IMG/VR virus record: IMGVR_UViG_3300036781_000275
Span: 1 to 64,000 of that record
Strand: one strand, 5' to 3'
Length of the DNA: 64,000 nt
Source of the DNA: a virus
Each line of letters starts with the position of its first letter. The stretch's first letter is position 1. The notes beneath the pieces are model-generated. The model was given only the letters and a program-made list of their open reading frames with translations. It was not told the origin of the DNA and did no database searches. Both the position numbers and the translations under genes were made by a program. Of the stretch, positions 20,388-52,971 are shown piece by piece.

Positions 20388-21029
20388 CTATTTCGCGTCG
20401 CCGCTCACGCAAAACTGATCCAGCCATGCGTGTACATCCGCCAAGGTGCGTTGATCCGCGTCATTCCATCCTCGCACAACGGACACCATCTCCTCTGTGC
20501 CACCAACTTCCAGCACCGCGCCGGCGAGACAGAAGCAATCGCCTTTGTCTGGCAGCACTTTCTTGTCAGCGCCCTTGATCCAATGTTCGGGGTCAAGCAA
20601 CGCTTTCGCTTTTGTTGCGATTTCGCACGTGGGTTGCGCATAAGGCTTCGGCGCGGCAATGAGACCGCCACCGTGCCAGTCGCCACCGTGCCAGTCGCCA
20701 CCGCGCCAGACGCCACCGCGCCAGTCGCCACCGCGCCAGACGCCACCGCGCCAGTCGCCACCGTGCCAGTCGCCACCGCGCCAGACGCCACCGCGCCAGT
20801 CGCCACCGCGCCAGACGCCACCGCGCCAGTCGCCACCGCGCCAGACGCCACCGCGCCAGTCGCCACCGTGCCAGACGCCACCGTGCCAGACGCCACCGCG
20901 CCAGACGCCACCGTGCCAGTCGCCACCGCGCCAGACAACGCGGCCTCGCGCGTCGATCTCTATGTCGGCGTTTTCGGTAATCGCGCGCACCAGCCATGCG
21001 GGCGCGTTTGAGAGTTCGGAAATTTTCAT
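20388..21029 (-). CDS. (D/V)W(R/H)GG pentapeptide-repeat protein with DUF6197-like C-terminus
   Basis: 18 pentapeptide units; C-terminal WIKG...CFCLAGA...WND...RT motif. Confidence 0.7.
   Translation of the reverse strand: MKISELSNAPAWLVRAITENADIEIDARGRVVWRGGDWHGGVWRGGVWHGGVWHGGDWRGGVWRGGDWRGGVWRGGDWRGGVWRGGDWHGGDWRGGVWRGGDWRGGVWRGGDWHGGDWHGGGLIAAPKPYAQPTCEIATKAKALLDPEHWIKGADKKVLPDKGDCFCLAGAVLEVGGTEEMVSVVRGWNDADQRTLADVHAWLDQFCVSGDAK
20667..20936. repeat. 15-bp tandem repeat, 18 copies
   Basis: unit GCCACCG(C/T)GCCAG(T/A)C. Confidence 0.95.
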
Positions 21030-21669: not shown

Positions 21670-21780
21670 TTGACTCCGCATTGGAAGTTGTTTGGTCTGG
21701 CCCTGCCCGATGAGATAAAGCTAACGCCTGTTAGGTGCCTGTCAAGCCCTCACGTAAAACATTGATTTTCCCACAGTTAG
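21670..21780 (-). repeat. ~110-bp promoter cassette repeat, copy 1
   Basis: TTGACA-N16-TAGCTT with CTAAC-N4-GTTAG (21721-21734); closely similar to 36133-36238 and 50684-50790. Confidence 0.85.
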
Positions 21781-23186
21781 AACCGCACACGCACTCGGCC
21801 CCATTTCCCGCGCACCGTATTCAGCCGGTAGCGCCACTCGTCGCCGATATGGTCCTCGTTCTCTGTGTTGACGTCGTTGATCTTGATCAAATCGCGCTGG
21901 AGCGCCGGCACGGTGCGAATGAATTGCGGGCACGTGTTCCAGCAGAAAAACCCCGCCTCTTCCATCGCCGATTTCTTCGCGTCCTTGAAATCGTGCGACG
22001 CCATTAGCATCGATCGGCATTTCTCCCAGCCATTGACGCGATGGTTGTCGGCGTCAATCCAATCAACGCCGCGCTCCTTCATCTGCTTCGCAATCGAGTC
22101 GCCGGTTGTGGCGTCGTGCGTGATCGTCGGATCAGCCGGCCCACCGTACACGGTCACACCGTACTTGTCCTGAATTGTTTTGTCTGCTGCGAGCACCGCC
22201 TCTGCGATCTGGCGGTTTGTCCAGTGCACGCCCTCGTTCGGCTTGCCTGACCACCCGTAAATCTCTGCGATGCGAAACACTGTGCCGGGCGGAAACTTGT
22301 ACATGCGCCCGTCCGCCAGCTCGCACGGCGTGCCGTCGCTCTCCGCGTAGTAGCCCACGCTGAACGGTTTCGCCGAGCCCCAGTCGAACGCACGGTCAAC
22401 GTACCACGCCTTCGGGATCCTGAATGGCTGCATCACGTGCACATCAGCGTTCCACAGATCATCGAAGAATCCGCCGGCCACTATGTCCCACCCACCCTTG
22501 AGCCACGCTTTGCGCCGGTGCGGATCCGTGTCGGCGGCCAAGATGTGCGGATACCGCGGGTCCGCTTTGATCAGCGCTTTGTTCTCGGACCAGTGGCCGC
22601 GCACGCGCACGCGTGTGATGCCGCCTTTGAGCCGGATGATCTTGCCGGCGGGCGCGGGATCGATGACGTACGCCTTCACGACGTGGTGCCCAACACCGAA
22701 CGGGTTCGTGGTCGCGCGGATCCGCCGCGGCACGCCCGGATGCGTCGAGCGACAGCACGTGTTCATCGCCTCATAGCACTGCATGTTCGGCCAGTTCGTT
22801 AGCTCATCCCAGCCGATCCACGGGTACTCGTGCCCGTGATAATTCCAGTAGTCTTTCGGCGATGCCATGTAGCGCAACAACAGCTCTTCGCCCGTTGCGA
22901 ATTTCCAAATGTGGTCGCTGGCGTTGTACTTGGCGTCAGGGAAGCATGCCGAGAACAGACGGATCGATTTCTCGATGACGTCGCTCAGCTCCTTGTAGGT
23001 GCGCCGGAACAGGATGCCGCGCCAGTATCGGCCGTACCCCTGCCCGACCTCGCTCGCGAAGTCCGCGAGCAGCGCGACGGTCTTACCGGGTCCGCGCGTC
23101 CCGTCGTAAATCGTCTCTAGCGCCGGCGATGTCAGGAACACGCGCTGCGAGCCGGGTTGCGCTTCCCACGCGGCGAAATCGATCAC
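21777..23186 (-). CDS. terL: terminase large subunit
   Basis: GTRGPGKT Walker A, IGWDELT Walker B, TTNP, FDWGSAKPF, EDHIGDEWRY nuclease motifs. Confidence 0.93.
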   Translation of the reverse strand: MIDFAAWEAQPGSQRVFLTSPALETIYDGTRGPGKTVALLADFASEVGQGYGRYWRGILFRRTYKELSDVIEKSIRLFSACFPDAKYNASDHIWKFATGEELLLRYMASPKDYWNYHGHEYPWIGWDELTNWPNMQCYEAMNTCCRSTHPGVPRRIRATTNPFGVGHHVVKAYVIDPAPAGKIIRLKGGITRVRVRGHWSENKALIKADPRYPHILAADTDPHRRKAWLKGGWDIVAGGFFDDLWNADVHVMQPFRIPKAWYVDRAFDWGSAKPFSVGYYAESDGTPCELADGRMYKFPPGTVFRIAEIYGWSGKPNEGVHWTNRQIAEAVLAADKTIQDKYGVTVYGGPADPTITHDATTGDSIAKQMKERGVDWIDADNHRVNGWEKCRSMLMASHDFKDAKKSAMEEAGFFCWNTCPQFIRTVPALQRDLIKINDVNTENEDHIGDEWRYRLNTVRGKWGRVRVRF

Positions 23187-23821
23187 CGTTGGTCCTCGGA
23201 TGATTCGTCATCAGCCGCGTCGTCTGTCACAGACGGCAGCGGTCGCATACCGAATTCCAGCGGTTTTGACGGCTCTCCTATCACAATCTGCGTCGGGTCG
23301 TCCTTCGATCTCCGCCGGCCGCGTCGCCATTCGCGGGTCACGTGCAGGTGGCACGGATAGCACAACAGACGCAAATTCGCCGGGCGATCATCACCGCCGT
23401 CTGCTACCGGGATAATGTGGTCACACTGCCACGGTGCTGCTGCGAGTGGGCACGCCGGTCCCTGCTCGCCTCGGTAGATCCGGCGCTTCTCGTTGTCCCA
23501 CGAACTGTGCCAGTCGTACCGCATCCAGCCCGGATGTTCGAGCTTGCATCGACGGCACCGCCTGTCGCGCCGCTTGATCGTCTCCGCGAGCGCCTCCCAC
23601 GACGCCACGCACAGAAATTGGTCGACGCACCCCTCGCCACAGAACGTCGATCGCCGCGGCGCGACTTCACGACCGCACCACCGACACAGCCGGCGGCCGT
23701 GCGCGCCGCGTCCAGCCGGCTGCTGCACGTCGAGCCCGCGCCGCACGCGCCACCGCCCCCATGGCGGGATGATGAGTTTTTTTACGCGATCGTGCGGACT
23801 GCCTTCGGCGAACCCGCTCAT
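23183..23821 (-). CDS. HNH endonuclease with Zn-finger
   Basis: CRWCG...FCGEGC, RD..CRRC, DHIIPVADGG...NLRLLCYPCH. Confidence 0.85.
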   Translation of the reverse strand: MSGFAEGSPHDRVKKLIIPPWGRWRVRRGLDVQQPAGRGAHGRRLCRWCGREVAPRRSTFCGEGCVDQFLCVASWEALAETIKRRDRRCRRCKLEHPGWMRYDWHSSWDNEKRRIYRGEQGPACPLAAAPWQCDHIIPVADGGDDRPANLRLLCYPCHLHVTREWRRGRRRSKDDPTQIVIGEPSKPLEFGMRPLPSVTDDAADDESSEDQR

Positions 23822-24459
23822 CGCGCGGGCTCATCATCGAGCGCGTTCACGGCACGCTCCGCTTCCGCGGCCAGCTCGGCCTGTTGGCGCGTCGATACCT
23901 TCTCCCACTCCGCCTCATCGGTAAGGCGCATCGGCAGCTTGAGCACGCCAGCCTTCGCGCGCTCTTGACTGTCGTCTTTCTCGACACTTGCCGCGGTTTC
24001 CTTCCCGTTCACGTCATGCGCGCGACGTTCGAGATCCGCCGAGAGCTTCGCCATGCGCGTCAAGTCGGTGACGTCTTTGATGTCCTCGGGCTTCATGCTG
24101 GCCAGCTTCTGCACGACCTGTAGCTGCATGGCCTTCGCGATCTTGATGTGTCGCGCCGCCATTTTTTTTCGCTCGGCCACCGCGCTCCGCGTCTCTTCGC
24201 GGGCGAGATGTCGGTCGTATTCAAGCGCCCGGCTTACCCAATCGTTTGCCTGTGACCACTTCTTGAGTTGTGGGACACCATACGGCAACCCCTTTGCAGT
24301 GCGTTTGCCGGCGGCGTTCTCAGCGGCGTAAACGATTGTCGCGGCTTCTCTTACGGTTCGTCGTGCGCCGAGATCGAGATAGACCGTGAACGCCCCGAAC
24401 GACCGCGACGATTCACGGTCGAGCGCATCCCATGGGTTGCGTTCGTCGGCTGCCGGCAT
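23818..24459 (-). CDS. terS: terminase small subunit
   Basis: PWD...ES...AF.VYLDLG.RR...WS...WVSRA.EYD; position upstream of terL. Confidence 0.75.
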   Translation of the reverse strand: MPAADERNPWDALDRESSRSFGAFTVYLDLGARRTVREAATIVYAAENAAGKRTAKGLPYGVPQLKKWSQANDWVSRALEYDRHLAREETRSAVAERKKMAARHIKIAKAMQLQVVQKLASMKPEDIKDVTDLTRMAKLSADLERRAHDVNGKETAASVEKDDSQERAKAGVLKLPMRLTDEAEWEKVSTRQQAELAAEAERAVNALDDEPAR

Positions 24460-24500: not shown

Positions 24501-25292
24501 CTACACGGTGTACGGGAGTACGATCCGCCGGCGGCCCTTATTGAGTACGCGTTTCGTGAGCGGGTTTCCTTTCGGGCTGCCGCGTTGAATGGCTTCGCCG
24601 AAGTGCGCGCGCAGAAACTGGTACGCTTCTTCTTCGGCTGTTGGGTGCCGGAATTCGGCGAGCCCGCCTTGTCCGGTGTAGGTCTCTTTGAATCCGCATG
24701 CGAACCGCTGATCGAGCCAGCAGTACCGGTGCAGTGCCGCGTTGAGCAACGACAGCCAGAAATCGCTCACGGGCAGCGAGCTGTCGGGACAGAAGAGCTT
24801 CGAGCCGGCCGCGATGCCGATGCAGCCGTCGAGCACGTAGCCACCGAACGAGTAGGGTCTGAGCTGGCGGTACGAGGCGGGATTCACGTGGGTGGCGAAG
24901 CCGAACAGATACGTGTTCATCATGACGGCGGTCGCGTAGCAGTTCTGAATGATGTCGTACGCTTCGCGGCCGGTCGTGCGGGTTTTGCGTCTGGCGCGGT
25001 TCGGGGTTTTCGAATCGGGCGCTTTGCCCATGTAGAGCCGGAACAGGCCGATGAAGTCATCATCCACCATGCACACGGGCGCAAAGTTGTTGATGATCCA
25101 CGTGCGTTTTCTGGCGATACCGATGATCGAGTCGGGGTGTGTGACGATTTGATCGGCCGCGTGATGCTTGCGGTACTCGTCGTACTGGGCTTCAGGCACG
25201 CACAGCTTGCCGCCGTCGAGGAATTGCATCGTGGTCACGCGGCCGGCGCGCTTGTGCGACGGGATGATGATCGCGCAGTCGGGGCCGTTCAC
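24501..25292 (-). CDS. GREB1/TET-associated-type glycosyltransferase
   Basis: IIIPSHKRA, VPEAQYDEY, GIARKRTWI, MVDDD, GG.. motifs (GT-A fold); GTGA overlap with the ParB-like gene. Confidence 0.7.
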   Translation of the reverse strand: MNGPDCAIIIPSHKRAGRVTTMQFLDGGKLCVPEAQYDEYRKHHAADQIVTHPDSIIGIARKRTWIINNFAPVCMVDDDFIGLFRLYMGKAPDSKTPNRARRKTRTTGREAYDIIQNCYATAVMMNTYLFGFATHVNPASYRQLRPYSFGGYVLDGCIGIAAGSKLFCPDSSLPVSDFWLSLLNAALHRYCWLDQRFACGFKETYTGQGGLAEFRHPTAEEEAYQFLRAHFGEAIQRGSPKGNPLTKRVLNKGRRRIVLPYTV

Positions 25293-26110
25293 AGGTCGGT
25301 CCCCGTGGCAGCGGGACGCAGCTCTTCGGTGAGCGCGGCGAGATCCTCGGTGACGGCTTGCGCGTGTTCGCTCGGCGTGGGCTCTGCTGGTTTCGCTGAC
25401 GGCGCTGGCGCGGGTTGCGCGCGCTGCACGCATCGTTCGAGCACGTCGTTCGCGAACATGACGGCCGTTTGTCCGAGCGAGCCTTTGCGATCACGCATGA
25501 CCTGCGGGTTCAGGAGCGTCTTCAGTCGTGCCCACTCCATTTCCGTACGACAGACCAAGATGATCGCGTTGTAACCCTCGTCCCAGTTCGGCGCGATCGG
25601 ATACGCGACGGCGCTCGGCTTGTCGTCTTTTTCGGTGGGCACGTCGTCACTGGCTTCGCGGATCGTGAGCGCTTCGGCGAGTTCGGTGAGATTGGCGTCG
25701 CCGGCCATCTGGTCGAGCAACGCGGACAGGGCGAGTTCATCGGTCTCGGCCATTTGCCCGATCGCATCGTGTGACGCGATGACCGCATCGGCCTCGTCGT
25801 CGTTGAGATCGGTGAGCAACACGGGCACGTCGCCGGTCGCGAGTTCCTCGTGCCGCAAGTGCCCGTCGATGATCGTGAGCCCACCGTACCGCGGCGAGTC
25901 GTACACGACGAGCGCTGTCGTGAAGCCGAGCCGGTTTAGCGAGAGACGGAGCGCGCTGCGTTGATCCGCGCCGTGTATGCGCCAGTTCTTCGGGTGTGTG
26001 CGCAGCGTCGCGGCGTCGACGAGGCGCATCGCGGTGATGCGGTTACGGATCCCATTAGCCAAGGCCAAGGGTGTGCTGCTGTTCGCGCTGTTGTTGGCGG
26101 GGCTCGTCAT
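25289..26110 (-). CDS. ParB/Srx N-terminal domain protein
   Basis: LRTHPKNWRIH, SL.RLGF, IIDGHLR, VPV motifs. Confidence 0.75.
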   Translation of the reverse strand: MTSPANNSANSSTPLALANGIRNRITAMRLVDAATLRTHPKNWRIHGADQRSALRLSLNRLGFTTALVVYDSPRYGGLTIIDGHLRHEELATGDVPVLLTDLNDDEADAVIASHDAIGQMAETDELALSALLDQMAGDANLTELAEALTIREASDDVPTEKDDKPSAVAYPIAPNWDEGYNAIILVCRTEMEWARLKTLLNPQVMRDRKGSLGQTAVMFANDVLERCVQRAQPAPAPSAKPAEPTPSEHAQAVTEDLAALTEELRPAATGTDL

Positions 26111-26801
26111 GGACCGGTTCTGCGGGGGAGAGAGGTGGGGGCGCGAACGCTAACTGCCGGGCGTGATCCCAGCCATGGCTTCTGACCATGATGCCGAGCG
26201 CGCGGTGCGTGTCGTAATGCCCGGAGAGCATCGAGGGGCCGCGATTATCGCGACGGCCTTCGAATGTGTGATCATCGATCGCGAAAGCCGGCATGCCTGA
26301 CCATGGCATGAGGCACGGGGCGCGAAAAGCATCGGTCGACGGCTTCATGGTGAGCCAAGTCCAGAAAACGTTTCTGGCGCGCGTGGTCATCCAGAATCCG
26401 TAGCGCTTCGCTTCGGCCATCAGGAATTCAGTTTCCGCGTATTTCGCGGCGCGTGCTTCCTGTTCGAGATCGCAGAAGCGATCCGAGAGCGCGCGGATCC
26501 CGTGGTGTGTGTCGCGCGAGCAGAGCGCGGCGAAGTCTTCCGCCTTCAGCTCAGCGAGCGCCGCGGGGAAGCTGGCGAGCGAGGGGAAGGTGTCTTCGAA
26601 AAGCCCAACAGTGAGCGTGGCAGCAATCGTCGAACGGTTCAGCCGGTGGCGCGCCTGAAGGATTCCTTCAGGCCAGCCGATGCGCAGCGCCTTGACGGCG
26701 AGTGATTTCCATGCTGATTCGCTCCAGCCGTCGATAAATCGGATGGGCTTGGCCGCCTTCGGTGTCTTTGGTTCGGAAGTTCGTAACCGCTTTGTTGGCA
26801 C
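26055..26801 (-). CDS. hypothetical protein, weak resemblance to the MgsA/RarA C-terminal-like helical domain
   Basis: KSLAVKALRIG, ED, AIDDHTFEGR motifs; operator at 26833-26846 upstream. Confidence 0.45.
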   Translation of the reverse strand: MPTKRLRTSEPKTPKAAKPIRFIDGWSESAWKSLAVKALRIGWPEGILQARHRLNRSTIAATLTVGLFEDTFPSLASFPAALAELKAEDFAALCSRDTHHGIRALSDRFCDLEQEARAAKYAETEFLMAEAKRYGFWMTTRARNVFWTWLTMKPSTDAFRAPCLMPWSGMPAFAIDDHTFEGRRDNRGPSMLSGHYDTHRALGIMVRSHGWDHARQLAFAPPPLSPAEPVHDEPRQQQREQQHTLGLG

Positions 26802-27132
26802 TGGTTTAGCTCGTGTGAGAGATGCCCAAAAGCTAACACCCGTTAGGTGCTAGCGCTAGTGCCTCAGCGAGCGGAAATAGGCGTCGTCCGGGTTATCATT
26901 CATGGCCTGTTTGGCCTGTGGCGAGTAGTCTGGCCCACTGGCTCCTGATTGGATCGACTGGGCACGCGTCAGCGGCACTGGGCGGGCTACTAGGACGCAC
27001 GCGCAGCCGTCCCCCATGTCGCAGTCCTTGGGGTCGTTGAGGTACGGGCAGCGGGTCGCGCGGTACATGGGGATCGGTGCGGCTCGTGTGGCTCGGTCGG
27101 TGCGGGTCGTCATGGCGTCCGCCTGTGCTGAC

Positions 27133-27148
27133 TGTTTCACGTGAAACT
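27133..27148. promoter_or_regulatory. parS: parS-like centromere site
   Basis: TGTTTCACGTGAAACT = 15/16 match to consensus TGTTTCACGTGAAACA, at a gene boundary. Confidence 0.7.
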
Positions 27149-27556
27149 ATTCGGGCAGGTCCGCGTCGTCGCGGCCCTCGTACGGCAGTACCCACGCCTG
27201 TTCGAGCTGATCGAGCAACGCGAGCGTTTGCAGCGGTGACAACCGCCGGATCTGCTCTGAGAGCTGGTCACGCAGCGTGGTCAGCGGCTGATCGACGTCG
27301 AGATTGCTCACGTGCGCCCACAACAGCCGCGGATCAATCACGGTTCCCTTCAGGGCCTTCGCGAGAAACTCGACCTCGCCGGCCGTTACGCCGAGCTTGG
27401 TACGCTCCTCGCGCATCGCGGTATACGCGCGCAGCAGATCGTGTTTGATCTTCGACGAGAACGCTGCGCCGCCAGCGACGCGTCGCTCCAGCTCTTCACG
27501 CAACCCGCCGCCCAGATGCACCGACGCGTTATCGCGGAGCTTCGTCTTTTCATCAT
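27147..27556 (-). CDS. putative DNA-binding regulator; apparent 1-nt frameshift after the start
   Basis: RBS GGAGAC and ATG at 27556 are out of frame with the long ORF at the AAAAG run (27547-27550). Confidence 0.45.
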
Positions 27557-27584
27557 GACTGTCTCCGCTGTTCCTCACACGCAC

Positions 27585-46337: not shown

Positions 46338-47501
46338 TTAGCCGTCGATCCCCACTACCTCGCCGAAGGGGGCCGCCTCGATGGTTCCGGTGACTGCCCA
46401 GAGCACTGGGAGCGCCGGCGGCTCACTGGGGAAGCTCCCGGCAAGGTCCGTCAGATACACCGCGCAGACTGGCGGCTCGTCCATCGTGTCGACCGCCTCC
46501 AGTGCCGGCGCGAAGTCGGTGCCGCCGCCGCCCATGGGGCGCAGCTCGACCGGCTCGCCCTGCTCGAAGGTCTCCGCCGCGTTCACCGCCGCGTCCGCGT
46601 ACACCACGTGAATGCGCGCGGGCTGTAACTCGTCGGCAATCGCGTTGATTTCGGCCGCGAACTTCGCGAGCGTCACGTCGTCAATCGAGCCCGACGTATC
46701 CACGATCACCGCGATCGCGCCGAGCTGTTCCGAGCGCAGCGACGGCAGATACAGCCGGCGCGCCAGATAGCGAGTGTTCGGGCGCGTCCACGCGTAGTCC
46801 GCCTGTGCGGCTTGCTGCACGAATCGGCGGAGCGCTGATCGCCAGTCGACTCGCGGCTTCACGGCTTGCTTTACGAATCGGCCGAGCCCCGCCGGCAGTG
46901 CACCGCGCGCCCGTGCTGCCGCCGCGGCTTGCTGCACCGCTTCGCGCCACTCCGGTTCTGTGTTGCTGTCTTCGGTGGCATCGGCTGGCGCGTCGCGCAC
47001 TTCACCCGGCTGTTCCTGCTCGGTGCCGTGCGGCTCGCTCTGCTCTGCGTCCGGTTGCGGCGCGCCGTTCTCGTCTGGCGTTCCCTTGCCGTCCTGCCCG
47101 TCTGAGCGCGGCAACCGATCGTAAATCCACTCCGACGCTTTGCCCGTGAACTGCGCCTCGCAGAGCACGCCTTTCGGCAGCTTGAACCCCGACTCGCGGA
47201 GCATCGTGTTGATCGCGTGGTCGCACGCAATGTTCCATTTTTTCTGTTCGCGCCCGTCTCTGCGCCACGGGTGTCCGCATGCGCAGTGCATCACTTCGTG
47301 CGCGATGATGCCGACGATCACGTTGTGTGATTGCGCATCGATAAACTCGGCGTTGTAGCCGAGTGTGCGGCCGTCGACCCACGCCGTTTTGCAGCTCGGA
47401 TCCTCCACGAGCTTCAGGCGAAGCGCCAGCGCGCCGAAAAACGGTTGATCGATCACGAGCGCCGCGCGCGCCACCATCATTTTCTTTTCCGTCTGGTTCA
47501 T
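46338..47501 (-). CDS. metallopeptidase-vWA domain protein (DUF2201-like)
   Basis: TAWVDG, AHEVMH (HExxH), WNIACD.AIN, VDTSGS (MIDAS), GGGGTDF, YLTD. Confidence 0.88.
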   Translation of the reverse strand: MNQTEKKMMVARAALVIDQPFFGALALRLKLVEDPSCKTAWVDGRTLGYNAEFIDAQSHNVIVGIIAHEVMHCACGHPWRRDGREQKKWNIACDHAINTMLRESGFKLPKGVLCEAQFTGKASEWIYDRLPRSDGQDGKGTPDENGAPQPDAEQSEPHGTEQEQPGEVRDAPADATEDSNTEPEWREAVQQAAAAARARGALPAGLGRFVKQAVKPRVDWRSALRRFVQQAAQADYAWTRPNTRYLARRLYLPSLRSEQLGAIAVIVDTSGSIDDVTLAKFAAEINAIADELQPARIHVVYADAAVNAAETFEQGEPVELRPMGGGGTDFAPALEAVDTMDEPPVCAVYLTDLAGSFPSEPPALPVLWAVTGTIEAAPFGEVVGIDG

Positions 47502-47615
47502 TCGCGTTGACTCCACGTTGTGAGTGTCTCGCCTGCCTGATCCCAGCCTAACGCCTGTTAGGTGCGATGGCAAGGGGAGAAGCGGCCGGCGGCCGTCTCT
47601 CCCGATGCCGGTGGG

Positions 47616-48539
47616 CTATTCCTGCTCGGCGGGCGGCTCATAGAAGCCACTCATTGCGTCGAGAATCGACTGGGTGCGCGCCGCCGCGTCTGCCCGGAGT
47701 GTCTCCGCGGCTGACCCCGTTTCACGCAGCAGCTTGGGACTGAGCGTCATGATCTCCCGCGCGACTCGCGTGCGGATCACTTCGAGGTTCGCGTCATCCA
47801 CCACGTTCAGCCGGGCCACGAGGTCCGTCGTGTCCGTGGTTTGCTTCACGATCGCGTCGCGAATCGCGGCGCGCTTCGCCTGACCGGTTGGGCTGTCCTC
47901 GTTGATCGCGGGATCCGCGACGAGTCGGTGAATTCTGGCCACCGCCTCATAGACTCGCGACCATGTGTCCGTCATGGCATCCTTCACGGCGCTCTCCACA
48001 CGGTCCGTGATGGACTTCTCCAGCTCGGCGATTTGATCCGCCGGCAACGCGAGCCGAAAATCGCCCTGCGCTGGGAGCGGCGCGAAGTGGAGCGCGAACT
48101 CGAACTTGCCGCGCACTTCGCTCTCGGCGGGATAGTCCGCCTCGTTGTACAGGCCGTTCAGGCGCACTTTCGCCTGTTCCTTCAGCGCCGTGTAGTCGCT
48201 GACGAATTGATCAACTGCGGCCTCGAAGGCTACACGGGCCTTGCGGAGCTGCTCCGTGTACTGGAAATAGTTGGTCGACGGCAGCAGCCTCCAGCCCTTG
48301 TCAGACCACGGCAGCGCGTTGACGTCGTGGAGTGCGCGCGCGGCCGTCGCGGCGGAAATCACCTTGTTGAGACTGGTATCGGGGCCGCCGAGCAGATGTT
48401 TGTTGTACCGGCCCGCGTCACGCCCCGCGGCGTGCTCAGTGTTCACCTTGTCGGTGACCTTCTTGTCGAAGCGTCGCGCCGTCCATGTCGAGACATGGAG
48501 CTTCACGGTCAGCGCGCGGGATTGAATGTCGATGCTCAT
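47616..48539 (-). CDS. conserved helical phage protein (DUF3150-like)
   Basis: V.LHVSTWTARRFD, LPWSDKGWRLLP, LNGLYNEADYP; coupled to the AAA gene. Confidence 0.6.
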   Translation of the reverse strand: MSIDIQSRALTVKLHVSTWTARRFDKKVTDKVNTEHAAGRDAGRYNKHLLGGPDTSLNKVISAATAARALHDVNALPWSDKGWRLLPSTNYFQYTEQLRKARVAFEAAVDQFVSDYTALKEQAKVRLNGLYNEADYPAESEVRGKFEFALHFAPLPAQGDFRLALPADQIAELEKSITDRVESAVKDAMTDTWSRVYEAVARIHRLVADPAINEDSPTGQAKRAAIRDAIVKQTTDTTDLVARLNVVDDANLEVIRTRVAREIMTLSPKLLRETGSAAETLRADAAARTQSILDAMSGFYEPPAEQE

Positions 48540-49570
48540 TACTTGGTTTCTCCAGAGAGAAGTTGACCCAGCTCGCCAGAGCTGAGTTTGATGAAATCGG
48601 CTGTCTGTGTGATCGCGGGGTTCCGCCGGCTTGCATCGCGCGCCAGCAGCGCCGCGAACTCGCCGTGTTGCGCATCGATCAAGCGTTGCGCGTACAGCGC
48701 GACTCGACCGAAGTTGGTGGGCGTCGCCTTGGTCGCGAGCGCCGTGGTGATCGCATAGAGCGCCGCGGGCTTTTCAGGAATCGGCGCGACGTCGGGATTG
48801 AGCAGCACCATGTCGATGCTCGGCAACTCTTTGAAAAGTTGCAGGAAGCCGCGCAGCTCGACCGCCGCGCCATCGCCAACCGCTCCAGCAAGCGCCGCCT
48901 GCTCCACGGCCGCCGGCAAATTCATTCCGAGCACGCGGGCCGCGTTCGACCATGTGCGCGGCGTCGGACTGTTCGTGAGATCAGCGCTCGCCTTGAACTG
49001 GCTCAGCAGCTCCGGGCGGAAGCGTAGGAAGGCAATCAGCTCGGCCGGAATGTGCGACTGCGTGAATGCCCACTGGCACCACTCATCAAGATCGGCCTCC
49101 AGCTCGACGATCGCCGTGAAGCGCGACTTGACCGGTTCGAGAATGCCGCTGACGCCGGCCTTGTCGGTGCGACGATTCGTTGCCGCGATGAATGTCACAC
49201 AGTCGGGCAATTTGTGCCCGTTGACTCGGCGCGCAAGCAGGAGCTGCATGAAACTGGCCTGCACCGCCGGCGTTGCCTGTCCGAGATCATCGAGAAACCA
49301 CACGGTCGGTGCGGTCGCGTTGATCGCGCGCGCCAATTCGCCGAACGGGAGAAAGTGTGCGGACTGCTCGTCTTTGCCGACCCACGGCAAGCCCTTGACG
49401 TCGGTGGGATCCGATACGGCGGGATGGCTCAGGATCAGCTCGGCACCGACCGCCGTGGCGGCCTTGGCCACGATGTCAGATTTGCCGATGCCCGGCGCGC
49501 CCGTGATGAGGACCGGCTGTCGTGCGGCGATCGCACTGCCCAGCAGGGTAGAAAGTTCCGATGGTTTCAT
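48539..49570 (-). CDS. MoxR/dynein-related AAA+ ATPase
   Basis: GAPGIGKS, FLDDL, AATNR..DKAG, SRF, PTPRTW. Confidence 0.88.
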   Translation of the reverse strand: MKPSELSTLLGSAIAARQPVLITGAPGIGKSDIVAKAATAVGAELILSHPAVSDPTDVKGLPWVGKDEQSAHFLPFGELARAINATAPTVWFLDDLGQATPAVQASFMQLLLARRVNGHKLPDCVTFIAATNRRTDKAGVSGILEPVKSRFTAIVELEADLDEWCQWAFTQSHIPAELIAFLRFRPELLSQFKASADLTNSPTPRTWSNAARVLGMNLPAAVEQAALAGAVGDGAAVELRGFLQLFKELPSIDMVLLNPDVAPIPEKPAALYAITTALATKATPTNFGRVALYAQRLIDAQHGEFAALLARDASRRNPAITQTADFIKLSSGELGQLLSGETK

Positions 49571-50205: not shown

Positions 50206-50679
50206 TTAGTGCTGTTCGTCGTTGTTGATCACGACCACTGTGTCCGTCTCGCGGCTCACGATGTCGAAGCTCGTTGCGATGTCGCGAGATTTTTCGGTCA
50301 GAATCTGCGCCGGCACCGTCCGTGCGCGCTGCGCATTGCGTACCATCGCCGTGTTCAGCGAGCAAACCACGTAGCATAGCTCGGTCGTGAAGCCGGCCGC
50401 GCGCGCATCGCGAATGCGCCGCGTCATGCGCTCGGCGTTCGTGCCAGTGCCGTCGATGATCCAGTTACCGGCCTTGCCCGCCACCGCCGCCGCGAACTGC
50501 TGCTCGGCGATTTCCATCGAGTAGTTGTGCAGGGGAGCCGGGTTTTTCGGATCGTAATCCGGGTGTGCCGCTTTGATCGCGTCGGGATCGATCACGGTGA
50601 ATCCTTCGTAGCGCGCCCGTCCAACTGTGCTCTTGCCAGCGGCCGGAAGCCCCATGAGAAAGATCATCGTTGCCGTCAT
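50206..50679 (-). CDS. zeta-toxin-like/AAA_33 P-loop kinase
   Basis: MGLPAAGKST, IDPDAIK, IIDGTG, RN..RAR.VP. Confidence 0.75.
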   Translation of the reverse strand: MTATMIFLMGLPAAGKSTVGRARYEGFTVIDPDAIKAAHPDYDPKNPAPLHNYSMEIAEQQFAAAVAGKAGNWIIDGTGTNAERMTRRIRDARAAGFTTELCYVVCSLNTAMVRNAQRARTVPAQILTEKSRDIATSFDIVSRETDTVVVINNDEQH

Positions 50680-51778: not shown

Positions 51779-51799
51779 CGTGTTCCCTCGGTGTGAAGG

Positions 51800-51872
51800 T
51801 ATGCCGTGAGGGACTCGAACCCTCGACCTTCCGATTAAAAGTCGAATGCTCTACCTGTTGAGCTACCGGCGC
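51800..51872 (-). tRNA. tRNA-Lys(UUU), imperfect acceptor stem
   Basis: D-arm GCTC/GAGC, anticodon loop CTTTTAA, T-arm GAGGG-TTCGAGT-CCCTC; mismatches C2:A71 and G7:A66; no encoded CCA. Confidence 0.8.
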
Positions 51873-51880
51873 TGACGTGC

Positions 51881-52168
51881 TCAAATGCCACGGATCGAGC
51901 GGAGGACTCGCCGATCTTTCCGTTCGGCGTCAAACAGGTCCACTTCTCGCTGCACATTGAGCCAGAACTGAACTGACGTGTTCAGCGCCTTCGATAGGCG
52001 TAGCGCCACCGCCGCCGTGACCTGTGCGCGGCCTCGCACGATGTTGCGAACACGATGAGCTGGAAACTTCATGCGGGCCGCTAAGCCTTTCTGCGTTAGA
52101 TCAGGATGTTCGCGAATGTAATTGCCGAGCACTTCGCCCGGCGTTGGCGGCCGTACCGGTCTTCTCAT
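51881..52168 (-). CDS. higA: HigA-family antitoxin (orphan)
   Basis: PPTPGEVL, LTQ..LA, IVRGRA.VT..VALRLSKALNTS.QFWLNVQ. Confidence 0.85.
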   Translation of the reverse strand: MRRPVRPPTPGEVLGNYIREHPDLTQKGLAARMKFPAHRVRNIVRGRAQVTAAVALRLSKALNTSVQFWLNVQREVDLFDAERKDRRVLRSIRGI

Positions 52169-52193
52169 GTCGCGCTCCACGGAGTGTGTTCTG

Positions 52194-52664
52194 TCATTCG
52201 CCGCGCACGTCGAGCGGCTTGCCGTCCCGCATGTACCGGAAGAATCTGACACGGACCATCACATCATCACCGAGCCCCGGCCGATAATTCCCCTCATGCA
52301 AAAAGTCGTCCGCTACCGCAACCCACCCTGCGCGATCTCGCCGATTCTCCAGCAACACACTCTCGATATACGCGGCCGTCTCCGTGCTCGGCTGCCGCGT
52401 CCCACCAGCGTCAACCGTGAATTGCACTCGTGATTTGCGAATCACGAGATCGCGTTCTTCGAGTTCACGCGTCGCGCCCAGCAGCGCTAAGTGCTCGACA
52501 TCGCACGTCAGCAACTGCACGCTGCGCGTCATGATGATCTCCGCGAGCTGCGACGCCAGCATCGTAAACTGAATGAAATCAGCGCGGCTCTGTTCGTCCT
52601 GCACGCTGAATACGATGCTGCCGCCGGCGGTCGCGTGAATGGATACGTTCGTGAGAAGTCTCAT
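52194..52664 (-). CDS. hypothetical protein
   Basis: ATG just after variant operator 52676-52689. Confidence 0.5.
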   Translation of the reverse strand: MRLLTNVSIHATAGGSIVFSVQDEQSRADFIQFTMLASQLAEIIMTRSVQLLTCDVEHLALLGATRELEERDLVIRKSRVQFTVDAGGTRQPSTETAAYIESVLLENRRDRAGWVAVADDFLHEGNYRPGLGDDVMVRVRFFRYMRDGKPLDVRGE

Positions 52665-52787
52665 GGCACGCAAACCTAACACATGTGAGGACAGGCACGG
52701 AAGGCTTCGAGGATCTCCACATTCCCACGCGGTTGTTCTGGTAGTGCCAGTTAGTCGACACACCGGAACCAGTAACTGTAATAGTAG

Positions 52788-52971
52788 CGTGGATAAGCGT
52801 GGATAACTCTGTAACTGATTGCGGTTGCTAACGTTGACGCTGATTTACTTCTGTGGAAATCGTGTGCATAACGTGTCGACAAGTCCGGTTGTCCACTCAC
52901 CGTGAGGCGCGCGCCGCGGGCGAGGTGGAGAACGGGAGCGGATCCACAAGTAATCCACCGAGTTGTCAACA
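52788..52971. promoter_or_regulatory. DnaA-box cluster, putative replication origin
   Basis: ~10 TT(A/G)TNCAC(A)-like 9-mers in a lower-GC intergenic gap. Confidence 0.7.

What the first reader, a model, noticed from the sequence alone, without database searches (positions are those of the whole stretch)
27133..27148. Chromosomal-type parS site; with the DnaA boxes, a possible chromosome-mimic phage
Seen: TGTTTCACGTGAAACT at a gene boundary, with a perfect 14-bp palindromic core and 15/16 identity to the bacterial parS consensus. Known: parS is loaded by host ParB/Spo0J, and phi29 carries parS sites that exploit the host segregation machinery. No ParA or integrase was recognised in the window. 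Inference: parS plus the DnaA-box cluster could let the phage persist or position itself extrachromosomally using only host cis-acting signals, a phage-plasmid without its own Rep/Par proteins.
Basis: partly seen in the sequence, partly recalled or inferred. Interest (0 to 1): 0.8.

Follow-up and report, generated by a model that had tools for sequence, protein, structure and literature searches.

The report
Conserved parS site beside phage ParB-like cassette
A soil phage carries one perfect copy of the bacterial chromosome-partition site parS, and two distantly related phages keep the same kind of site at the same spot next to a DNA-modification gene set, so it is probably a working host-protein landing site and not an accident.

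Summary
TGTTTCACGTGAAACT lies at 27133-27148 and its 14-bp palindromic core occurs once in the complete 73,323-bp phage record. It sits in the 33-nt spacer between two minus-strand ORFan genes. About 1e-4 to 6e-4 copies are expected by chance.

The decisive result came from relatives. No close kin exist, but the gene two places downstream (P0004 family) let me fetch 14 viral loci. Two of them (G012, G013) are phages with an unrelated terminase. They carry TGTTCCACGTGGAAC(A/G), a symmetric variant that still fits the parS consensus. It lies 2-3 nt after a stop codon and just upstream of the same gene order: small ORF, P0004-like, ParB-like protein with no recognisable DNA-binding domain, TAGT glycosyltransferase, terminase. 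Each record has exactly one such site. A third lineage with the cassette has none.

The site is therefore very probably functional. Its sequence points to host ParB as the binder. The "phage-plasmid or chromosome mimic" reading is only partly supported:
- a DnaA-box cluster does exist, 25.6 kb away;
- no integrase, ParA or Rep was found;
- a ParB-fold gene does lie 1 kb away;
- nothing shows episomal persistence, and the two parS-bearing relatives show no DnaA-box cluster.

My preferred model is that host ParB loads at this site and is coupled to the ParB-like DNA-modification cassette.

The parts
27133..27148 (.). parS-consensus palindrome TGTTTCACGTGAAACT (14-bp perfect core at 27134-27147)
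   Evidence: Syntenic counterparts lie in L352 (5608-5623) and L350 (5526-5541).
27147..27584 (-). Upstream gene P0003 (145 aa), an ORFan; its TAG stop overlaps the site
   Evidence: the only hit among 5.8 billion proteins is itself. The single-sequence AF2 model has pLDDT 63.8 and no fold match at E<=0.001. It is not alignable with the upstream genes of L350 or L352 (22-24% identity).
26856..27113 (-). Small ORF P0002 (85 aa from ATG 27113), the first gene after the site
   Evidence: ORFan. A non-homologous small ORF of 64-65 aa holds the same place in L352 and L350 (15-16% identity).
26055..26801 (-). P0004-family protein (248 aa). Function unknown; nearly invariant E69, D70, H100, D176, H178, H199, R215
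   Evidence: 95 representatives at E<=1e-3. Searches give the conserved residues. No Pfam hit in 0 of 30 members and no PDB sequence hit. Its neighbours elsewhere are sugar epimerase, TAGT-like glycosyltransferase, amidoligase and ParB-like genes.
25289..26110 (-). ParB-N-like protein P0001: N-terminal ParB/Srx-type domain with invariant IDGHLR, a conserved small C-terminal domain and no recognisable HTH. The public gene call is 246 aa.
   Evidence: PHROG 620, 723 and 498. No Pfam family at E<=1. PF02195 was not found in six frames at E<=0.01. Family alignments. 36% identity over the full length to the L352 homologue.
24501..25433 (-). TAGT-like (TET-associated) glycosyltransferase
   Evidence: PF20691, 1.2e-9. 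phrog_842. 40% identity to the L352 homologue.
21777..24459 (-). Packaging genes just downstream of the cassette: TerS 23818-24459, HNH 23183-23821, TerL 21777-23186
   Evidence: This TerL is unrelated to the TerL of L352.
52713..52971 (.).

Best explanation
The palindrome is a genuine, selected parS-type landing site, not a chance motif.

It marks the 5' edge of a mobile three-gene DNA-modification cassette that sits just ahead of the terminase genes. The cassette comprises a P0004-family protein, a ParB-like protein with no recognisable DNA-binding domain, and a TAGT-like glycosyltransferase.

The complete phage encodes no ParB-type HTH, and the site equals the chromosomal consensus. The binder is therefore most likely the host's chromosomal ParB.

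Inferred mechanism. Host ParB-CTP nucleates at this single site on incoming or replicating phage DNA and slides outward. The phage ParB-like protein has the N-terminal fold and a C-terminal domain but no DNA-reading part. It would use the host-loaded complex to get itself and its partner enzymes onto phage DNA in cis.

What is shown: the site, its uniqueness, its conserved position, and its linkage to the cassette.
What is inferred: host ParB binding, and the coupling to the phage ParB-like protein.

My odds: functional site about 0.9; host ParB as binder about 0.65; the whole coupled model 0.45.
For: (1) Exact 14/14 core and 15/16 consensus. It is unique in the genome, with 1e-4 to 6e-4 copies expected by chance.

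(2) Positional conservation across deep divergence.
- Of 14 viral loci that encode a P0004 relative, 2 carry a site that fits GTTNCACGTGNAAC with no mismatch. L352 has TGTTCCACGTGGAACA and L350 has TGTTCCACGTGGAACG.
- In both loci the core starts 2-3 nt after the stop codon of the preceding gene. It lies 48-77 nt before a small ORF that has a strong SD sequence. In the window it overlaps the stop codon and lies 20 nt before the ATG.
- The difference from our site is a symmetric pair of changes (T to C and A to G) that keeps both the palindrome and the consensus.
- The chance of the 12 specified bases falling in a 100-nt spacer is 4-6e-6.

(3) Each of G000, G012 and G013 has exactly one such site in its whole record.

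(4) The linkage is to the cassette, not to the phage backbone.
- Cassette proteins are 36-47% identical.
- TerL shows no similarity.
- The flanking upstream gene and the small ORF are not homologous.

(5) No ParB HTH, canonical ParB or ParA was found anywhere in the complete genome.

(6) Host-type parS on phages is a real, recurrent thing.
- In the 113 single-site loci the flanks are T at -1 in 88 and A at +1 in 90. Of the 112 with both flanks readable, both fit in 71 and neither in 6.
- The longest ORF of 0 of 131 loci is a ParB or ParA.

(7) Precedent. phi29 carries five Spo0J-bound parS sites (PMC2731898, passages). [quoted passage not shown]
Against: - Only two independent lineages carry the site: our phage, and G012 with G013, which are 72% identical to each other in P0004.
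- A third lineage has the same cassette order but no site within 1 mismatch in its record. This is G014 and its 84%-identical relative L363. G014 is 51% complete.
- The other 10 of the 14 P0004 loci, where the gene sits in other contexts, have no site within 2 mismatches.
- Conversely, 0 of 48 other parS-bearing IMG/VR records (15 of them at least 90% complete) encode a P0004 relative. The positive control rang in 4 of 4. Phage parS therefore does not need this cassette.
- P0004 is not recognisably a TET/JBP dioxygenase. PF12851 is absent in six frames and 0 of 30 family members hit any relevant Pfam family. The analogy to the published ParB-dependent system rests on the ParB-like and glycosyltransferase genes only.
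- Host and host ParB are unknown.
- If the cassette modifies thymine or cytosine, the site itself may be modified, with unknown effect on binding.
- No binding, expression or modification data exist.
- The scan that produced this finding covers many windows, so some exact 14-mers are expected by chance overall. The everted control's 93 stretches show the size of that background.
Confidence: 0.45

Rival explanations
1. The site lets the phage genome ride the host ParABS/SMC machinery. Copies would be positioned or inherited by daughter cells, spores or cysts during a carrier or pseudolysogenic state. The DnaA-box cluster would serve as a host-driven origin. The cassette linkage would be incidental.
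For: - phi29 precedent.
- The DnaA-box cluster is real.
- No integrase, Rep or ParA was found, so any persistence would have to use host factors.
- Many IMG/VR phages without the cassette also carry consensus parS, including phi29-like contigs with DNA_pol_B_2, the Phi29 scaffolding protein, Gp16 and the GP10 connector.
- A HigA-family antitoxin gene lies beside the DnaA-box region.
Against: - There is a single site, against five in phi29.
- No repressor-type lysogeny module was recognised.
- G012 and G013 show no DnaA-box cluster (these records are incomplete).
- The exact syntenic placement at the cassette edge in phages with unrelated backbones is not predicted by a pure segregation role.
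- The circular assembly does not show an episome.
Confidence: 0.2
2. The site is read by a phage-encoded factor, independently of host ParB. Candidates are the ParB-like/P0004 complex or the small ORF product. It would serve as the loading or operator site of the cassette and late operon.
For: - Tight linkage of the site with the cassette in two lineages.
- ParB-family genes commonly sit next to their own sites (recalled).
- PMC13229309 reports structural predictions that place the enzyme where the DNA-binding domain of chromosomal ParB would be (passage).
Against: - P0001 and its relatives have no HTH or other recognisable DNA-reading domain.
- The small ORFs are not homologous between lineages.
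- An unrelated binder would have to share, by coincidence, the 16-bp specificity of chromosomal ParB in two allelic forms.
- The third cassette lineage lacks the site.
Confidence: 0.15
3. The site is a host-ParB-dependent transcriptional switch or insulator. ParB clamps spreading from it would damp or time expression of the modification and packaging operon that starts there.
For: - In all three phages the site lies between a stop codon and the first gene of the cassette-terminase block.
- ParB-family clamps such as KorB regulate transcription (PMC13229309 discussion passage; otherwise recalled).
Against: - No promoter-like site is found next to it.
- The RNA fold of the spacer is unremarkable, z = -0.01.
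- There is no expression data.
Confidence: 0.1
4. It is a chance palindrome with no function.
For: - Palindromes of 14 bp are at chance level in this genome.
- The everted control 14-mer occurs in 93 IMG/VR stretches.
- One flank departs from the consensus.
- Distant capsid and TerL relatives lack it: 0 of 3 Nanhaivirus genomes and 0 in G001 at up to 1 mismatch.
Against: - Expectation is 1e-4 to 6e-4 per genome.
- A consensus-preserving variant sits at the same syntenic position in two other phages, each with one site per record.
Confidence: 0.07

Closest known systems
parS sites of phage phi29 bound by host Spo0J/ParB (PMC2731898, passages read)
   Same: A chromosomal-consensus parS lies on a phage that encodes no canonical ParB or ParA, so host ParB is the presumed reader.
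   Different: phi29 has five sites and a shown link to spore entrapment. Here there is one site, the host is unknown, the phage is an unrelated 73-kb siphovirus-like phage, and the site is tied to a ParB-like DNA-modification cassette.
ParB-dependent phage thymine dioxygenase (5mYOX clade C1) cassettes (PMC13229309; abstract, sections 5 and 8, passages read)
   Same: A ParB homologue with an N-terminal domain and a C-terminal domain but no recognisable DNA-binding domain is encoded next to a DNA-modifying enzyme gene. Glycosyltransferase and terminase genes lie nearby.
   Different: The partner here (P0004 family) is not detected as TET/JBP. In the parts of that paper I read, parS is mentioned only for chromosomal ParB and not for the cassettes. 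The conserved consensus parS at the cassette edge is the new element. I did not open that paper's supplements, which hold its gene neighbourhoods.
Chromosomal ParABS centromere (consensus TGTTNCACGTGAAACA; Livny et al. 2007 as cited in PMC10197239, otherwise recalled)
   Same: Same 16-bp palindromic consensus. One site is enough to nucleate ParB (recalled).
   Different: It is not next to parAB or an origin, and it lies on a virus.
Plasmid-prophage partition modules (P1, N15, cluster A mycobacteriophages; PMC7157519 seen in a search listing only, otherwise recalled)
   Same: Both are cis sites for DNA partition on a phage genome.
   Different: Those encode their own ParA and an HTH-bearing ParB with their own non-chromosomal sites. 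None of that is present here.

Membership tests
Chromosomal-type parS | Match to the 16-bp palindromic consensus TGTTNCACGTGAAACA | tested here: met
   15/16 overall and 14/14 in the core. The relatives carry TGTTCCACGTGGAAC(A/G).
Chromosomal-type parS | Specific binding and CTP-dependent loading of ParB | not testable with these tools
   No binding data exist and the host is unknown.
Chromosomal-type parS | Conserved under selection among relatives | tested here: met
   Syntenic sites in 2 of 14 P0004 loci, with one site per record in G000, G012 and G013, and none in G014.
phi29-type phage parS | Several sites spread over the phage genome | tested here: not met
   There is a single site within 1 mismatch in 73,323 bp.
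phi29-type phage parS | No phage-encoded canonical ParB or ParA, so the host protein is used | tested here: met
   Pfam and NCBIfam on all ORFs, and PF02195 searched in six frames.
Phage-plasmid partition system (ParA, HTH-ParB, own parS) | ParA ATPase and a ParB with an HTH encoded beside the site | tested here: not met
   There is no ParA. P0001 has only a ParB-N-like domain and no Pfam HTH at E<=1.
Phage-plasmid or temperate lifestyle | Integrase, Rep initiator, protelomerase or repressor module | tested here: not met
   None in 143 ORFs scanned with Pfam or 70 with NCBIfam. Only a HigA-type HTH and an AraC-type HTH were found.
ParB-dependent 5mYOX cassette | ParB homologue with N-terminal and C-terminal domains but no DNA-binding domain | tested here: met
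   PHROG ParB-like hits cover residues 28-159. The C-terminal block is conserved in 4 subfamily members. No HTH was found. No structure was obtained.
ParB-dependent 5mYOX cassette | Adjacent TET/JBP-fold Fe(II)/2OG dioxygenase (PF12851) | tested here: not met
   PF12851 is absent in six frames at E<=0.1. In the P0004 family, 0 of 30 members hit it.
ParB-dependent 5mYOX cassette | Neighbouring glycosyltransferase and terminase genes | tested here: met
   TAGT, TerS and TerL lie directly downstream here and in L350, L352 and L357.
oriC-like DnaA-box cluster | Several DnaA boxes clustered in an intergenic stretch | tested here: met
   3 of 3 strict matches and 9 of 30 relaxed matches lie within 52713-52971, and 0 of 60 simulations cluster as tightly. 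An unwinding element and DnaA dependence were not tested.

The most novel reading that the evidence does not exclude
Host ParB, loaded at the phage's single parS, serves as the missing DNA-reading and loading subunit for a phage ParB-like protein that has no DNA-binding domain. The mixed or relayed clamp then carries base-modifying enzymes (P0004-family protein, glycosyltransferase) along the phage genome. Hypermodification is thereby aimed in cis at DNA that bears the site. This would be self-marking by centromere mimicry. [quoted passage not shown]
Probability: 0.3. Interest if true: 0.85.

Novelty: new variant of a known kind. Interest (0 to 1): 0.68.

Why it matters
Host-type parS on a phage has one studied precedent that I could find, the phi29 family. 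My paper searches found no other.

Two things go beyond that precedent.

First, the IMG/VR scans suggest that orphan consensus parS sites are widespread on viral contigs of many kinds. These include phi29-like, microvirus-like and tailed phages, 15 of them at least 90% complete.

Second, in this phage and in an unrelated phage lineage the site is fixed at the edge of a cassette built around a ParB-like protein with no recognisable DNA-binding domain. A 2026 paper left the working of such activators open (PMC13229309). A conserved chromosomal parS beside the cassette gives a concrete, testable idea: the host's ParB supplies the DNA recognition.

If true, it links chromosome-partition machinery to targeted DNA hypermodification. 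It would also offer a way to direct modification to chosen DNA.

Tried and rejected
Searches for close relatives.
- Megablast and blastn of the region against 50,697 phage records gave no match.
- P0003, P0001 and TerL against IMG/VR gave none, none, and one 50% TerL relative without the site.
- TerL against JGI metagenomes gave only 50% and 34% relatives.
- P0003 and P0002 have no homologue but themselves.

Host inference.
- The lysin matched nothing in phages or in 185,579 genomes. The ESM Atlas gave only generic M15 clusters.
- The best DUF5131 hits are spread over Methylocystis, Gemmatimonadota, Marmoricola and others. The capsid was not found in those 5 genomes.
- The host is unresolved.

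Other readings of the site.
- Operator family: half-sites GTTTCAC (6) and GTGAAAC (7) occur at expectation, 5.6 and 4.8.
- RNA element or terminator: fold z = -0.01, Rfam finds only two tRNAs, and no terminator or promoter lies next to the site.
- A dif-like motif (recalled E. coli-type core) gave 0 matches within 3 mismatches in the window. Other hosts' dif sites were not tested.

Protein structure and interaction.
- P0003 fold: the model is low-confidence and the fold search gave nothing at E<=0.001.
- P0004 with P0001: complex prediction was never accepted because the queue was full, so there is no result either way.

Sequencing runs and other tools.
- One DNA holder is listed, probably the source of the window, and no RNA holder is listed.
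- Laying that run's contigs showed a 72,994-base contig at depth about 45 with no difference at the site. It gives no information on ends or episomal state.
- A TET/JBP domain and a C5 methyltransferase were not found in six frames.
- The L363 word with 2 mismatches lies inside a 535-aa ORF and was set aside as chance.

Full report
1. THE OBSERVATION

Window 27133-27148 reads TGTTTCACGTGAAACT. The 14-bp core GTTTCACGTGAAAC is a perfect palindrome. The 16-mer matches 15 of 16 positions of the chromosomal parS consensus TGTTTCACGTGAAACA, which is the form quoted in the methods of PMC10197239 (passage). That position 5 is variable is recalled.

The window is bases 1-64000 of a 73,323-bp virus record. 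The record has a 127-bp terminal repeat and is rated 100% complete. GC content is 63%, and practically all genes are on the minus strand.

On that strand the site overlaps the TAG stop of a 145-aa ORF (27147-27584). It ends 20 nt before the ATG of an 85-aa ORF (26856-27113).

The core occurs once in the whole record. The next best 14-mer has 3 mismatches.

2. IS IT MORE THAN CHANCE?

- Expected copies of the exact 14-mer in this genome are 9e-5 to 5.6e-4, depending on the Markov order.
- Palindromy alone is unremarkable: 11 perfect palindromes of 14 bp or more, against 12.2 in simulations.
- The loose 16-mer pattern at up to 3 mismatches is not enriched.
- Half-sites are at expectation, so there is no operator family.
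- Only 5.9% of positions are non-coding.
- The spacer RNA does not fold unusually (z = -0.01). Rfam finds only two tRNAs in the window. No promoter or terminator consensus lies beside the site.

A background estimate came from IMG/VR. The reversed control gives 29. An everted control with identical dinucleotide content gives 93. Chance copies of such a word therefore do exist in a large collection.

Among the 113 single-site loci, the base before the core is T in 88 and the base after it is A in 90. Of the 112 with both flanks readable, both fit in 71, one fits in 35 and neither fits in 6. In loci with GC of 0.58 or more the split is 11, 12 and 5 of 28 sites. Random flanks would rarely fit, so most sampled hits are true 16-mer consensus sites. 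The sample is whatever the scan returned first and may not be representative.

3. WHAT THE PHAGE IS

It is a tailed phage. Pfam and PHROGs identify a P22-type coat protein, a tail tube protein, a tape measure protein, a portal, TerS, HNH and TerL. They also find a helicase, a Sak4-like ATPase, an N6/N4 methylase, a MoxR-VWA pair, DUF5131 and two tRNAs.

- The capsid is closest (38%) to Nanhaivirus phages of Dinoroseobacter and Pseudanabaena.
- TerL is closest (51%) to Xanthomonas, Stenotrophomonas and Pseudomonas siphophages.
- No integrase, recombinase, Rep, ParA or canonical ParB was found in 100 plus 43 ORFs (Pfam) or 70 ORFs (NCBIfam), or in six frames for PF02195.
- The only run that holds the stretch is one soil metagenome, probably the source of the window. 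Its 72,994-base contig, at depth about 45, agrees at the site.
- The host could not be assigned.

4. THE NEIGHBOURHOOD

Reading along the minus strand the order is:
- P0003 (ORFan)
- the site
- P0002 (ORFan)
- P0004 (248 aa, no family)
- P0001
- a TAGT-like glycosyltransferase
- TerS, HNH, TerL

P0001 hits PHROG 'ParB-like partition protein' families over residues 28-159 but no Pfam model, even at E<=1. Its relatives are proteins of about 185 aa or N-terminal modules of N6/N4 methyltransferases. They share an invariant IDGHLR motif and have no HTH. A ParB-fold gene lies 1 kb from the site, but it is not a canonical centromere binder.

5. RELATIVES: THE DECISIVE RESULT

The wider kin lack the site: 0 of 3 Nanhaivirus genomes within 2 mismatches, and the 50% TerL relative has none within 1 mismatch. 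Close kin do not exist in the collections.

P0004 does have a family: 95 representatives at E<=1e-3 among 1.84 billion proteins. A profile of 30 of them fetched 14 IMG/VR loci.

Two of the 14 carry a perfect fit to GTTNCACGTGNAAC upstream of the P0004 homologue:
- L352 (record G013, 29.8 kb): TGTTCCACGTGGAACA
- L350 (record G012, 36.9 kb): TGTTCCACGTGGAACG

The other 12 have none within 2 mismatches.

In both loci the core starts 2-3 nt after the stop of the preceding gene and lies 48-77 nt before a small ORF with a strong SD. The gene order then matches ours: small ORF, P0004-like (44-47% identity), ParB-N-like (36% over the full length), TAGT (40%), TerS-like, TerL.

The backbones differ:
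- TerL shows no similarity to ours.
- The portal is Mu-type.
- The upstream gene and the small ORF are not homologous to P0003 or P0002.

Relative to our site the change is symmetric (TTTCAC/GTGAAA to TTCCAC/GTGGAA). It keeps the palindrome and the consensus. That this form is a natural chromosomal variant is recalled.

Each of G000, G012 and G013 has exactly one such site in its record. The chance of the 12 specified bases falling in a 100-nt spacer is 4-6e-6.

6. RESULTS AGAINST A STRICT LINKAGE

- G012 and G013 are one lineage (72% identity in P0004). That makes two independent lineages with the site.
- A third lineage has the same cassette order but lacks it: G014, which is 51% complete, and its 84%-identical relative L363.
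- Of 48 other parS-bearing IMG/VR records, none encodes a P0004 relative. I picked these from the 131 loci for high GC and long contigs, and 15 are at least 90% complete. The positive control rang in 4 of 4.
- The longest ORFs of the 131 loci include no ParB or ParA. They do include phi29-type hallmarks: DNA_pol_B_2 in 3 loci, and the Phi29 scaffolding protein, Gp16 and connector in 1 each. Microvirus proteins appear in 2. A gpA terminase, a portal and a prohead protease also appear.
- Of 4 large parS-bearing records, 2 have a ParB_N-like ORF and 2 have none.

Orphan consensus parS on phages is therefore a wider phenomenon. The cassette is one context of it.

7. MECHANISM

What is shown:
- a consensus-grade, unique site;
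- its conserved position at the 5' edge of a mobile cassette in two deeply diverged phage lineages;
- no phage gene with a ParB-type DNA-reading domain.

What is inferred:
- The reader of the site is host chromosomal ParB, because the site equals that protein's consensus in two allelic forms.
- ParB nucleates there and spreads as a CTP clamp (established for chromosomal ParB; passages in PMC12704722 and PMC13229309).
- This is coupled to the ParB-like protein next door.

The nearest described system is the ParB-dependent phage thymine dioxygenases of PMC13229309. I read its abstract, sections 5 and 8, and passages; I did not open its supplements. Its main points are these:
- The activator there keeps the nucleotide-binding and C-terminal domains but lacks an obvious DNA-binding domain.
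- It is needed only on double-stranded DNA.
- Mutating its nucleotide-binding residues had no effect in E. coli.
- Glycosyltransferases (31%), ParBs (27%) and terminases (19%) are the commonest neighbours.
- In the parts I read, parS is named only for chromosomal ParB.

Membership in that system is not established here. P0004 is not detected as TET/JBP, and I could not fold it.

The DnaA-box cluster is real. It lies beside a HigA-family gene and a tRNA, 25.6 kb from the site. It may well be a host-dependent origin.

The pairing with parS is not seen in G012, G013 or G014 (these records are incomplete). No lysogeny or plasmid gene was found. The circular assembly does not separate an episome from permuted virion DNA.

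A phi29-like segregation role remains a live rival (0.2). It does not explain the cassette linkage.

9. VERDICT

- Observation: confirmed.
- Interpretation: partly supported.
- The site is very likely functional (about 0.9) and most likely read by host ParB (about 0.65).
- Its coupling to the ParB-like modification cassette is my preferred but untested model (0.45).
- Novelty: a new variant of known kinds, namely phi29-type host parS and ParB-like activator cassettes. The new element is a consensus parS fixed at the edge of such a cassette. My paper searches found no description of it.

Noticed in passing
window 52713-52971: A dense cluster of DnaA-box-like words in a low-GC intergenic stretch. 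It includes a tandem AGCGTGGATA AGCGTGGATA. It lies next to a HigA-family antitoxin-like gene (51881-52252, 72.6 bits against a cut-off of 47.7) and tRNA-Lys (51798-51872). It is a possible host-DnaA-dependent origin or regulatory region.
   Followed up: partly
IMG/VR loci L008-L138: Consensus parS sites are common on viral contigs and mostly carry full 16-mer flanks. Some contigs hold arrays, for example L044 with 5 sites in about 800 bp. Several are phi29-like (protein-primed polymerase, Gp16, connector) and two are microvirus-like. None of the 131 longest ORFs is a ParB or ParA.
   Followed up: partly
L345, L353, L355, L356: The P0004 family, which has no Pfam or PDB sequence match, recurs next to nucleotide-sugar epimerases, TAGT-like glycosyltransferases, an amidoligase and ParB-like genes. 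It looks like an uncharacterised enzyme of phage DNA glyco-modification. Nearly invariant residues are E69, D70, H100, D176, H178, H199 and R215.
   Followed up: partly
window 46338-49570: A MoxR-type AAA ATPase (48539-49570) lies two genes from a DUF2201 metallopeptidase/VWA protein (46338-47573), with a family-less 307-aa ORF (47616-48539) between them.
   Followed up: no
window 50206-50679: A small P-loop kinase (Zeta_toxin/AAA_33 hits). PMC13229309 lists P-loop kinases among thymidine-hypermodification genes, so it may belong to the same pathway although it lies 24 kb from the cassette.
   Followed up: no
window about 20704-20907: The run's long contig is broken here. Several very short records of differing depth (3 to 123) cover the gap. 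This suggests a local repeat or a population variant inside the DUF6197-containing gene.
   Followed up: no
L352 5640-5650 (G013:4417-4425): A single DnaA-box-like word (TCATCCACA) lies about 20 nt from the parS of G013. It is not seen in L350 or in the window, so it is probably chance.
   Followed up: no
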